43,862 nucleotides of DNA from a virus (IMGVR_UViG_2541047828_000009:1-43862); one strand, 5' to 3'; positions 42,955 through 43,862 are shown, numbered from the stretch's first letter. Numbers and translations: made by a program. Notes: generated by a model not told the origin, from the letters alone.

Positions 42955-43254
42955 ATGCTTAGACAGTCAGACATCGCCGCGGCTTTCCGCGAGTCCATTT
43001 TGCGCAGTTCCAAGGGGTTCCAGTACCTTCACACCCGCGACTTCGTTACTGCGCTGCGCCGGCGCGGCATCCATTTTTCCGAGGTGGAGGCGAACTCCTG
43101 GATCGCACGCGAGCAAACGTATTTCGTCGACAAAACGGCAGAGCATAGTGAAAACCGCCTGTGGATGATGGCCAACATGGGGAGGGTTCTGAGGAGTTAT
43201 CTTGCGATGCGCTATAGGTTTGCCCCATCCCTCCCAAACCAACCTTTTTTATAA
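42955..43254 (+). CDS. SOS-controlled small protein (99 aa), candidate antirepressor
   Basis: GGAGGG RBS; LexA box in its promoter; function inferred from context only. Confidence 0.5.
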   Translation: MLRQSDIAAAFRESILRSSKGFQYLHTRDFVTALRRRGIHFSEVEANSWIAREQTYFVDKTAEHSENRLWMMANMGRVLRSYLAMRYRFAPSLPNQPFL

Positions 43255-43313
43255 CCATCAAAAATCTGGTGATGCTTCGCCGTTCCTCCTGTTTTCATAA
43301 CAGGAGAAATCCC

Positions 43314-43862
43314 ATGATTTACGGTTATGCCCGAGTATCAACAAACCACCAGGACACTGAATTGCAACTAACGGCGCTCAAGTCAGCGGGTTGTGAGAAA
43401 ATTTTTGAAGAGCATGCCAGCGGGAGGAAATCGAATCGGCCGGTTCTAAAACGGCTGATCGCCACTATGCAGCCGGGGGATGAACTGGTGGTCTGGAAGC
43501 TGGACAGGATAGGCCGCAACGTTCTGCATGCGCTGTTGATGTTCCAGCAGTTACAGGAAAAGGGTATCAACTTCCGCAGTATTACCGATGGCGTGGATCT
43601 CAAAACAGCCAGCGGCCGCTATAACTTTCGTAACATCCTTTCCGCAGCACAATATGAATCTGATCTTAATAGCGAACGTACCTTAGCAGGGCTGGCCGTA
43701 GCCAGGGCAAAAGGGCGAGTTGGTGGTCGCAGGCCTAAGTTCACGGATGAGCAATGGCGGGAAATGGGGGAGCGGATGGCAACCGGTGAATCACGACAAA
43801 GCGTATCAAAAACGTATGGAGTAGGGCTCTCAACTCTGTATAAAAAGTTTCCAGCTAGCTGA
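43314..43862 (+). CDS. Serine recombinase of the DNA invertase family (Gin/Pin/Hin-like)
   Basis: MIYGYARVSTNHQDTELQ ... GDELVVWKLDRIGRN ... GINFRSITDGVDL ... C-terminal HTH LSTLYKKFP; the stop is the last codon of the window. Confidence 0.85.
   Translation: MIYGYARVSTNHQDTELQLTALKSAGCEKIFEEHASGRKSNRPVLKRLIATMQPGDELVVWKLDRIGRNVLHALLMFQQLQEKGINFRSITDGVDLKTASGRYNFRNILSAAQYESDLNSERTLAGLAVARAKGRVGGRRPKFTDEQWREMGERMATGESRQSVSKTYGVGLSTLYKKFPAS

What the first reader, a model, noticed from the sequence alone, without database searches (positions are those of the whole stretch)
43229..43862. Terminal serine invertase with a degenerate gix-like site and an RBS-sequestering hairpin, but no visible invertible segment
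A Gin/Pin-type invertase ends exactly at the window edge. About 60 bp upstream there is a 26-bp sequence (43229-43254, ccctcccaaacc-aa-ccttttttataa) with partial similarity to gix/hix crossover sites. An 8-bp inverted repeat (CCTCCTGTT / AACAGGAG, 43286-43307) would occlude the SD. I could not find a convincing inverted partner site by eye, so the inverted segment may lie beyond the window or the system may be degenerate.
Basis: partly seen in the sequence, partly recalled or inferred. Interest (0 to 1): 0.45.

Follow-up and report, generated by a model that had tools for sequence, protein, structure and literature searches.

The report
Orphan Pin invertase at prophage end
This is an intact phage DNA-flipping enzyme gene (Pin/Gin type) with one of its two recombination sites and a conserved hairpin over its ribosome-binding site, but the DNA segment it once flipped is gone, which is a recurrent and already described state in phi80-like prophages.

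Summary
The gene at 43314-43862 is a full-length Gin/Pin-type serine invertase. The 26-bp sequence at 43229-43254 is the pin-proximal crossover site; it sits 85 bp before the start codon in about 100 related loci. The inverted repeat at 43283-43309 is a conserved leader hairpin that holds the Shine-Dalgarno sequence and is annotated IR3 in phage phi80.

There is no partner site. A weight-matrix scan finds nothing above chance in the window. Just past the window lies the phi80-type attR and then the host gene yciI, so no invertible segment is hidden downstream.

In 67 of 96 related loci, a strong inverted partner lies 1.2-3.3 kb upstream and brackets tail-fibre cassettes. Some loci carry the same segment in opposite orientations, so this recombinase does invert DNA in nature. 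From the crossover centre to the stop codon, the window matches those working cassettes at 621 of 622 bases. The one difference (43285, T to C) removes one hairpin pair.

The window therefore carries an orphan Pin cassette. It is a mosaic remnant shared with phage HK225 and resembles phi80 pinL. It cannot invert anything in cis, though it might act in trans, as PinQ and PinR do. This is ordinary and already known.

The parts
43314..43862 (+). pin: full-length Din-family serine DNA invertase (182 aa), the same protein as RefSeq WP_000639140.1 and an orthologue of phi80 pinL
   Evidence: Pfam Resolvase + HTH_7. PHROG 125 DNA invertase, E 6.5e-75. Gap-free alignment to Gin 3uj3/4m6f. 55% identical to e14 PinE. 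Annotated WP_000639140.1 in the source genome and in loci with complete invertible segments.
43229..43254 (+). Pin-proximal crossover site (pix/gix/hix type): inner half 43229-43240 CCCTCCCAAACC, central dinucleotide 43241-43242 AA, outer half 43243-43254 CCTTTTTTATAA
   Evidence: Top PWM score in the window, above all shuffles. Fixed position -85 from the ATG in about 100 loci. The core matches the e14 pix sites read from MG1655 and the inverted-repeat core CCTTCTCCCAAACCAA reported for the e14 P segment (PMC12529663). Homology with other loci begins at 43231 or at the centre of the site.
43283..43309 (+). Leader hairpin 2 (phi80 'IR3'): 5' arm 43283-43293, loop 43294-43298, 3' arm 43299-43309 holding the SD AGGAG (43302-43306). 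The window-specific C at 43285 breaks the pair 43285-43307.
   Evidence: Folds at -11.8 kcal/mol here and -15.5 in the consensus, z -4.2 to -6.5. 9 of 11 pairs are invariant in 21 distinct leaders, one pair changes U-A to C-G in phi80-type leaders, and one pair is broken only in the window. Annotated as repeat_region IR3 in phi80 JX871397.
43268..43281 (+). Leader hairpin 1: GGTGA-TGCT-TCGCC, a small conserved stem with a variable loop
   Evidence: Predicted in the 55-nt leader fold. 97% of cells are paired across 21 leaders, with C-G to U-G and G-C to G-U changes and loop variation. Its function is unknown.
42955..43254 (+). ORF99: a 99-aa protein of unknown function (PHROG 3893 covers aa 1-79). 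Its last ~20 codons and stop codon run through a mosaic joint and the crossover site. This is context for the site, not part of an inversion system.
   Evidence: PHROG 3893, E 1.7e-39. From about 43174 onward it is 99.7% identical to HK225, while 42909-43190 is 94% identical to the sibling prophage in E. coli 23CRST046.
42917..42936 (+). LexA box TACTGTATATAAAAACAGTA upstream of ORF99. It overlaps the only candidate 'partner' inverted repeat, which was rejected.
   Evidence: Perfect match to TACTGT-N8-ACAGTA; 2 in the window against 0.03 expected. The inverted-repeat candidate 42923-42948 scores -0.5 and -4.5 bits for its two half-sites.

Best explanation
The region is an orphan Pin cassette at the right end of a prophage integrated at the phi80 attachment site (yciI). 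It consists of an intact Din-family serine invertase gene, its own pin-proximal 26-bp crossover site, and a conserved two-hairpin leader.

The distal crossover site and the invertible tail-fibre cassette, which this same recombinase brackets in most related prophages, are absent. They have been replaced by unrelated tail-fibre genes and an SOS-box-controlled small ORF. Recombination between prophages that use the same attachment site probably made this replacement (inference). The joint lies at about 43174-43191 inside ORF99.

A serine invertase needs two sites with matching central dinucleotides in inverted orientation on one supercoiled molecule (established for Gin/Hin/Cin/Pin). The cassette therefore cannot invert anything in cis.

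Shown here:
- The identity and intactness of the gene.
- The orthology of the site.
- The absence of a partner.
- The prophage end just past the window.
- Inversion in nature by identical cassettes.

Inferred:
- Pin is made at a low level, because the SD sits in the 3' arm of a stable, strongly conserved hairpin (-11.8 kcal/mol here, -15.5 in relatives).
- The protein is still active, so it could act in trans on pix/gix-type sites of other elements in the same cell.
For: - Source and flank: 100% match to E. coli 20KM2222. The gene is followed by yciI, tonB and trp, and an attR core lies about 125 bp after the window end. phi80 has the same order, pinL then attP then int.
- Site orthology and fixed position.
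- No partner in the window, none within 6 kb upstream, none in 12 kb of host flank.
- 67 of 96 related loci have a strong inverted partner 1.2-3.3 kb upstream, flanking gp53-like tail-fibre and tail-fibre-assembly genes.
- Segments between the sites occur in opposite orientations in loci with the same Pin, for example L040 versus L044 over 1867 bp.
- Window 43241-43862 equals the L040, L044, L003-L005, L034 and L051 cassettes except at 43285.
- The same orphan state occurs in phi80, which keeps a tail-collar pseudogene relic next to the site. HK225 has the identical ORF99-site-pin arrangement. 16 of 96 loci have no partner candidate.
- Hairpin folding and conservation.
Against: - Activity of this particular copy was not measured.
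- The Fis enhancer inside the gene could not be located by motif: the best matches to a loose Fis consensus have at least 3 mismatches. It is inferred only from identity with working cassettes.
- Support for an RNA structure rests on invariance plus a single compensatory event. The 3' arm would be conserved anyway because it is the SD.
- No promoter for pin was found by the consensus scan.
- The whole host genome was not scanned, so no trans target was identified. e14 is absent at icd.
Confidence: 0.85

Rival explanations
1. The orphan Pin is kept by selection as a trans-acting invertase. It flips pix/gix-type segments in other prophages or plasmids of the cell, as PinQ and PinR do with the e14 P segment. 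Read-through from the LexA-controlled ORF99 promoter might raise its expression during the SOS response. This adds to the best explanation rather than excluding it.
For: - Orphan PinQ and PinR invert the e14 P segment in trans, and its inverted-repeat core CCTTCTCCCAAACCAA is the core found here (PMC12529663).
- The protein is intact and identical to that of working cassettes.
- ORF99 has a perfect LexA box, and no terminator-like element lies between its stop codon and pin.
- Orphan cassettes recur: 16 of 96 loci.
Against: - e14 is absent from the host at icd.
- There is only one pin of this type in the chromosome, and no target was found.
- Near-identity to complete cassettes (621 of 622 bases) means the orphan state can be very recent and needs no selection to explain an intact gene.
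- SOS read-through is pure inference.
Confidence: 0.2
2. A small invertible segment exists inside the window. The inverted repeat 42924-42948 / 43229-43253 (25 nt, 72% complementary) would flank ORF99 and flip it relative to its SOS promoter.
For: The repeat finder reports this pair, with 280 nt between the arms.
Against: - The left arm is the LexA box plus the ORF99 SD. As a crossover site it scores -0.5 and -4.5 bits for its two halves, and its centre is TA, not TT.
- ORF99 has the same orientation relative to pin in HK225, ECCRA-119 and 23CRST046.
- The repeat would put the promoter outside and the SD inside the segment only by coincidence of G+C-rich SD complementarity.
Confidence: 0.02
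3. The partner site and invertible segment lie downstream, beyond the window edge.
Against: The source genome shows attR and then yciI, tonB, yciABC, ompW and trp directly after pin. The attR core lies about 125 bp after the window end, and the best site in 12 kb of flank scores 7.4 bits. The same junction is seen in many genomes.
Confidence: 0.01
4. The inverted repeat 43283-43309 works at the DNA level, as a protein-binding palindrome (operator) for pin transcription, rather than as an RNA hairpin that masks the SD.
For: Both arms are almost invariant, which fits a sequence-specific binding site as well as a stem. Covariation is limited to one event. The pin promoter is unmapped.
Against: - The phi80-type change is a double, pair-preserving change (U-A to C-G).
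- The neighbouring small stem varies through G-U wobble pairs, which preserve pairing only in RNA.
- The 3' arm is the SD, 7 nt before the ATG.
- More distant pin genes (e14 pinE, mEpX1 type) have different leader sequences that also place the SD in a weaker stem, although z-scores of -1.0 to -1.5 are not significant.
Confidence: 0.12

Closest known systems
pinL of phage phi80 (Lula), GenBank JX871397
   Same: - Orthologous invertase: 93% nucleotide identity over site, leader and gene.
- Same position, immediately before attP/attR at yciI.
- Same proximal site at -85 and same leader hairpin (annotated IR3).
- Also lacks a partner site: the best upstream candidate scores 8.2 bits.
   Different: - phi80 keeps a tail-collar pseudogene fragment next to the site, a relic of the inverted cassette. 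The window does not.
- The outer half-site differs: CCTTTCAAATAT versus CCTTTTTTATAA.
- The base pair at the bottom of the hairpin is C-G instead of U-A.
Phage HK225 (JQ086371) genes HK225_029 and HK225_030 (DNA invertase)
   Same: Same ORF99 - site - leader - pin - att arrangement, 99.7% identical from window 43174 to the end. The inner half-site CCCTCCCAAACC is identical, and there is no partner site.
   Different: - HK225 is a lambdoid siphovirus with N15-like tail genes. The window prophage has a Mu/e14-like contractile-tail baseplate module.
- The 5' three quarters of ORF99 are diverged.
- HK225 has T at the position equivalent to 43285.
e14 Pin / P-segment inversion system of E. coli K-12 (pinE, stfP/tfaP/tfaE/stfE), and the wider Din family (Gin of Mu, Cin of P1, Hin of Salmonella)
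   Same: - Recombinase family: 55% identical to PinE, and gap-free alignment to Gin.
- 12-2-12 crossover-site architecture with central AA, and an inner half TTCTCCCAAACC-like.
- The site lies just upstream of the invertase gene, next to a YmfQ/baseplate-J tail module.
   Different: - e14 has both sites (1.8 kb apart, inverted) and alternative tail-fibre ends between them. The window has one site and no cassette.
- The window protein differs from Gin and PinE in residues ~102-120.
Orphan invertases PinQ (Qin) and PinR (Rac) of E. coli K-12
   Same: They are serine invertase genes in prophages without an adjacent invertible segment. Both were shown to invert the e14 P segment in trans (PMC12529663; bioRxiv 10.1101/2025.03.28.646004).
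   Different: - PinQ is reported as only 38% identical to PinE. The window protein is a closer PinE/Gin relative.
- The window copy retains its own proximal crossover site.
- No trans target or phenotype is known for the window copy.

Membership tests
Din-family serine DNA invertases (Gin/Hin/Cin/Pin), the protein | Small (~180-190 aa) serine recombinase with an N-terminal resolvase catalytic domain carrying the Ser nucleophile and a C-terminal helix-turn-helix | tested here: met
   Pfam PF00239 (E 3.6e-39) and PF02796 (E 1.5e-09). Aligns 1-181 to Gin without gaps, with RVS(9)T conserved. 55% identical to PinE.
Din-family inversion switch, the system | A 26-bp crossover site (two 12-bp imperfect inverted half-sites around a 2-bp core) adjacent to the invertase gene | tested here: met
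   43229-43254 scores 18.2 bits and is the top hit in the window. It is orthologous to the -85 site of about 100 loci and to e14 pix.
Din-family inversion switch, the system | A second crossover site in inverted orientation with the same central dinucleotide on the same molecule | tested here: not met
   No site above null level in the 43.9-kb window. The best candidates score 13.2, 13.1 and 12.1 bits with centres GC, CA and TA. The best within 6 kb upstream scores 9.2 bits. None in 12 kb downstream.
Din-family inversion switch, the system | An invertible segment carrying alternative tail-fibre C-termini and assembly chaperones (or a promoter) between the sites | tested here: not met
   Upstream of the site lie ORF99, a 66-aa ORF, a 250-aa ORF and a 750-aa tail-fibre gene, all on the + strand. 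There are no opposed Stf/Tfa pairs.
Din-family inversion switch, the system | A Fis-bound recombinational enhancer inside the 5' part of the invertase gene | tested here: inconclusive
   A loose Fis consensus scan gave only matches with at least 3 mismatches. The gene is base-for-base identical to cassettes whose segments are found in both orientations, so any enhancer they carry is present here. That is an inference.
phi80-type pinL cassette at the yciI attachment site | Order site - two-hairpin leader - pin - att core - yciI, at the right end of the prophage with a tyrosine integrase at the left end | tested here: met
   for flank and att core. Window 1-1194 is a tyrosine integrase (NCBIfam). 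Leader alignment.
Translational-operator hairpin (SD sequestration) | A stable stem that includes the SD, conserved with compensatory changes, with a measured effect on translation | tested here: inconclusive
   Stable stem, z -4.2 to -6.5. 9 of 11 pairs are invariant, one compensatory change is seen, and one pair is broken in the window. The effect on translation cannot be tested with these tools. No Rfam family matches.

The most novel reading that the evidence does not exclude
The invariant two-hairpin leader is a translational gate that keeps Pin nearly silent. In orphan cassettes of the HK225/window type, the LexA-controlled ORF99 promoter reads through the crossover site into pin. DNA damage or phage attack would then raise Pin levels and trigger inversion of tail-fibre-like segments in other prophages in trans. 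This would be an SOS-linked version of the PinQ/PinR defence switch. The window's unique hairpin-weakening change at 43285 would be a step toward higher expression.
Probability: 0.08. Interest if true: 0.45.

Novelty: already known. Interest (0 to 1): 0.15.

Why it matters
For annotation, it matters in three ways:
- The recombinase should be labelled a Pin/Gin-type DNA invertase (pinL orthologue) with a single retained crossover site. It is not an integrase or resolvase.
- The prophage's tail fibres should be treated as fixed, not phase-variable.
- The locus shows how invertible tail-fibre cassettes decay. There is a series from complete systems, to phi80-type orphans that keep a cassette relic, to HK225/window-type orphans that keep only site and gene. 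Homology breaks fall at the crossover site.

Beyond that, the only open biological points are modest. One is whether the strongly conserved leader hairpin limits Pin translation. The other is whether such orphan invertases are used in trans, as recently reported for PinQ and PinR.

Tried and rejected
- Inverted repeat I5 (42924-42948 / 43229-43253) as a partner site: rejected. It is the LexA box plus SD, has negative PWM scores and the wrong centre.
- Inverted repeat I3 (38640-38664 / 43234-43258), inside the AT-rich acyltransferase gene: 6.9 bits, centre CT, at chance level.
- Half-site-like matches at 6142 and 5913 (TTATACCAAACC AA..., TTATGCCAAACC AA...), inside the recE-like gene: the second half does not match. 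About 3 hits with 2 or fewer mismatches are expected by chance in 87.7 kb, my own calculation.
- 37454 (ACATTTAAAAAG AA GGTTTATATGAG), at the start of the Gly-rich tail-fibre gene: 6.6 bits and in direct, not inverted, orientation.
- Partner beyond the window: refuted.
- Fis-site motif scan of the 5' coding region: uninformative.
- Rfam search of 42800-43862: no family.
- Pfam, NCBIfam and PADLOC for ORF99: nothing beyond PHROG 3893, function unknown.
- Second copy in the host genome: the second match turned out to be ORF99, not pin.
- e14 as a trans target: absent at icd in this strain.
- The paper describing the phi80 genome (the GenBank record JX871397 carries the pinL and IR3 annotations) was not found in the searchable library, so only its GenBank annotation is cited.

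Full report
**What is at the coordinates.** The last ORF of the window (43314-43862, 182 aa, stop codon at the window edge) is a small serine recombinase. It matches Pfam Resolvase (E 3.6e-39) and HTH_7 (E 1.5e-09) and PHROG 125 'DNA invertase'. It aligns to Gin of phage Mu (PDB 3uj3, 4m6f) over residues 1-181 without a gap, with the Ser9 nucleophile present. It is 55% identical to PinE of e14.

The 26-mer at 43229-43254 reads CCCTCCCAAACC AA CCTTTTTTATAA. AGGAG (43302-43306) lies in the 3' arm, 7 nt before the ATG.

**Where the window comes from, and what lies beyond it.** The last 1263 bases match E. coli 20KM2222 (NZ_CP151050.1) at 100%. In that genome pin is followed directly by yciI, tonB, yciA-C, ompW and the trp operon. 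A near-copy of the phi80 attP core (ACACTTTCTTAAATGGT) lies about 125 bp after the window end. The window begins with a tyrosine integrase. It is therefore a prophage integrated at the phi80 attachment site, running attL-int ... pin-attR. This is the order found in phage phi80 itself: pinL, attP core, int. Nothing phage-like lies beyond the window, and the best crossover-like 26-mer in 12 kb of host flank scores 7.4 bits.

**The site is real and orthologous.** I read the two e14 pix sites from MG1655: TTCTCCCAAACC AA CGTTTATGAAAA next to pinE, and TTCTCCCAAACC AA GGTTTTCGAGAG inside stfP. I also read the sites of three E. coli prophages that carry the identical Pin protein (WP_000639140.1) at the same chromosomal position together with opposed tail-fibre and tail-fibre-assembly genes. 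A half-site weight matrix was built from these sites plus hix, gix and cix sites recalled from memory. With it, the window's site is the best 26-mer in the window at 18.2 bits. In 30 shuffles the top score averaged 12.4 and never exceeded 16.9.

In about 100 related loci from E. coli genomes, GTDB genomes (Trabulsiella, Kluyvera, Pseudocitrobacter, Shimwellia, Apirhabdus) and IMG/VR, a site sits at a fixed -85/-86 from the ATG. The outer half, and everything to its right, is conserved. The inner half varies from locus to locus (TTCTCCCAAACC, TTCTCCCAATTG, TTCTTCCAAATG, CTGTTCGAAACG, CAGCGGCATAGG and others). Homology therefore breaks at or beside the central AA, as expected at a crossover point where cassettes are exchanged. 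The window's site differs from the commonest working site only in its two outermost bases, and the same inner half occurs in L073, which has a partner. 'Degenerate' overstates the case.

**No partner.** The next-best sites in the window score 13.2, 13.1 and 12.1 bits (at 19680, 21668 and 7429), which is null level. Their centres (GC, CA, TA) could not religate with AA. It is established for this family that the 2-bp overlaps must match.

The one inverted repeat that involves the site, 42924-42948 / 43229-43253 at 72% complementarity, is the LexA box plus Shine-Dalgarno sequence of ORF99. It scores below zero as a crossover site.

Among the 96 related loci with enough upstream sequence:
- 67 have a partner of 18-30 bits with a TT centre, 1.2-3.3 kb upstream.
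- 13 have a weaker candidate.
- 16, including the window, phi80 and HK225, have none. The window's best is 9.2 bits with centre AG.

**The recombinase works elsewhere.** In loci that carry the same Pin, the DNA between the two sites is found in opposite orientations. Six pairs show this, for example L040 versus L044 over 1867 bp at 90% identity or more. From the crossover centre to the stop codon (43241-43862, 622 bp) the window is identical to L040, L044, L051, L034 and L003-L005 except at 43285. Whatever cis elements those cassettes need, including the intragenic enhancer known from Gin, Hin and Cin, are therefore present here. This is an inference: a loose Fis-motif scan was uninformative.

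**How the orphan arose.** The sequence left of the site is mosaic:
- From about 43174 to the end, the window is 99.7% identical to phage HK225, which has the same ORF99-site-pin-attP arrangement.
- 42909-43190 is 94% identical to a sibling prophage in E. coli 23CRST046. That prophage has the same YmfQ, Gly-rich fibre and acyltransferase genes, and about 1 kb of DinI and isochorismatase fragments between the ORF and a phi80-type site.
- phi80 keeps a tail-collar pseudogene fragment next to its site.

This gives a decay series: complete switch, then orphan with a cassette relic (phi80), then orphan with only site and gene (HK225 and the window). The most economical origin is recombination among prophages that share the yciI attachment site. 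That is inferred, not shown. ORF99 (PHROG 3893, profile of 79 aa) owes its last ~20 codons and its stop codon to this joint and to the crossover site.

**The hairpin.** The consensus element is TTTCTCCTGTT-N5-AACAGGAGAAA. It folds at -15.5 kcal/mol (z -6.5). The window's version folds at -11.8 kcal/mol (z -4.2) because of the unique T to C at 43285.

Counting pairs across 21 distinct leaders:
- 9 of 11 pairs never vary, although the loop (TTCAT, TTCAC, TTTAC, TTTAT) and the SD-ATG spacer do.
- One pair changes U-A to C-G in the phi80 type. This is a compensatory change, but probably a single event.
- One pair is broken only in the window.

A second small stem (43268-43281, GGTGA-TGCT-TCGCC) is kept through G-U changes and has a variable loop. 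phi80's record annotates the main repeat as IR3. Rfam has no matching family. The consensus scan found no sigma-70-like promoter and no terminator between ORF99 and pin.

SD sequestration that keeps Pin translation low is the best reading, at roughly 0.55. A DNA-level operator remains possible. More distant pin genes (e14 pinE, mEpX1 type) have unrelated leaders in which the SD can also pair, but those folds are not significant.

**What it does.** In cis it does nothing: one site cannot support inversion. In trans it could act on pix/gix-type sites elsewhere. Cross-action among Din invertases is established. Orphan PinQ and PinR were recently shown to invert the e14 P segment, whose repeat core CCTTCTCCCAAACCAA is the core found here (PMC12529663). 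In this strain e14 is absent at icd, and there is only one pin of this type in the chromosome. No target was found, but the whole genome could not be scanned.

**Novelty.** The protein is an existing RefSeq entry, and the cassette occurs in 131 of 5426 complete E. coli genomes. phi80 pinL and the HK225 invertase show the same orphan state and are annotated. Orphan Pin genes that act in trans are published. The finding is correct but ordinary, so interest is low.

Noticed in passing
window 42917-42936 and 12500-12519: Two perfect LexA boxes (TACTGT-N8-ACAGTA; 0.03 expected by chance). One lies just upstream of ORF99 (42955-43254). The other lies just upstream of an 81-aa DinI-like ORF (12526-12771). 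Both small genes are probably SOS-induced.
   Followed up: partly
window 42955-43254: ORF99 belongs to PHROG 3893 (unknown function, widespread in Klebsiella and E. coli temperate phages near the genome end or DinI). A second copy lies elsewhere in the host chromosome. Its C-terminal ~20 residues differ between lineages because of a mosaic joint at about 43174-43191.
   Followed up: partly
window 38239-39617 (minus strand): An AT-rich (GC 0.34-0.36) acyltransferase gene (Pfam Acyl_transf_3) and a 95-aa ORF (PHROG 20491) are inserted on the opposite strand between tail-fibre genes. This looks like a moron and may be an O-antigen acetylase for serotype conversion.
   Followed up: no
window 43268-43281: A second small leader stem, GGTGA-TGCT-TCGCC, sits upstream of the main hairpin. 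Across genera the stem is kept through G-U wobble changes while the loop varies. Its function is unknown.
   Followed up: partly
window 43617-43673 (Pin residues ~102-120): The PinL-type protein reads YNFRNILSAAQYESDLNS where Gin and PinE read FFFHVMGALAEMERELI(I/V). From memory, this is the region where Fis-independent Gin and Hin mutants (H106/H107, M114) map. Regulation of this subfamily might differ.
   Followed up: no
loci L040 vs L044, L051 vs L059, L034 vs L090, L027/L067 vs L097, L064 vs L099: Tail-fibre segments between the two crossover sites occur in opposite orientations in otherwise similar prophages that carry this Pin. This is direct comparative evidence of inversion in nature.
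   Followed up: yes
loci L003, L012, L054, L061, L066, L071, L078 (site inner or partner halves): A subset of sites carries CAATTG in place of AAACC/GGTTT next to the centre (for example TTCTCCCAATTG AA ...). This is a variant half-site class that recurs in both proximal and distal sites.
   Followed up: no
window 37475-38260 and 39626-42848: The tail-fibre region is unusual for an e14-like baseplate module. A 261-aa Gly-rich fibre protein (Pfam Gly_rich_2) is followed, after the acyltransferase insert, by a 750-aa tail-fibre protein (PHROG 4201) and ORFs of 250 aa and 66 aa of unknown function. None of these genes has an opposed partner.
   Followed up: no
IMG/VR loci L024-L059: Many IMG/VR prophage contigs end exactly at the stop codon of this pin gene, as the window does. 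Prophage-boundary callers evidently cut at the last phage gene before attR.
   Followed up: no
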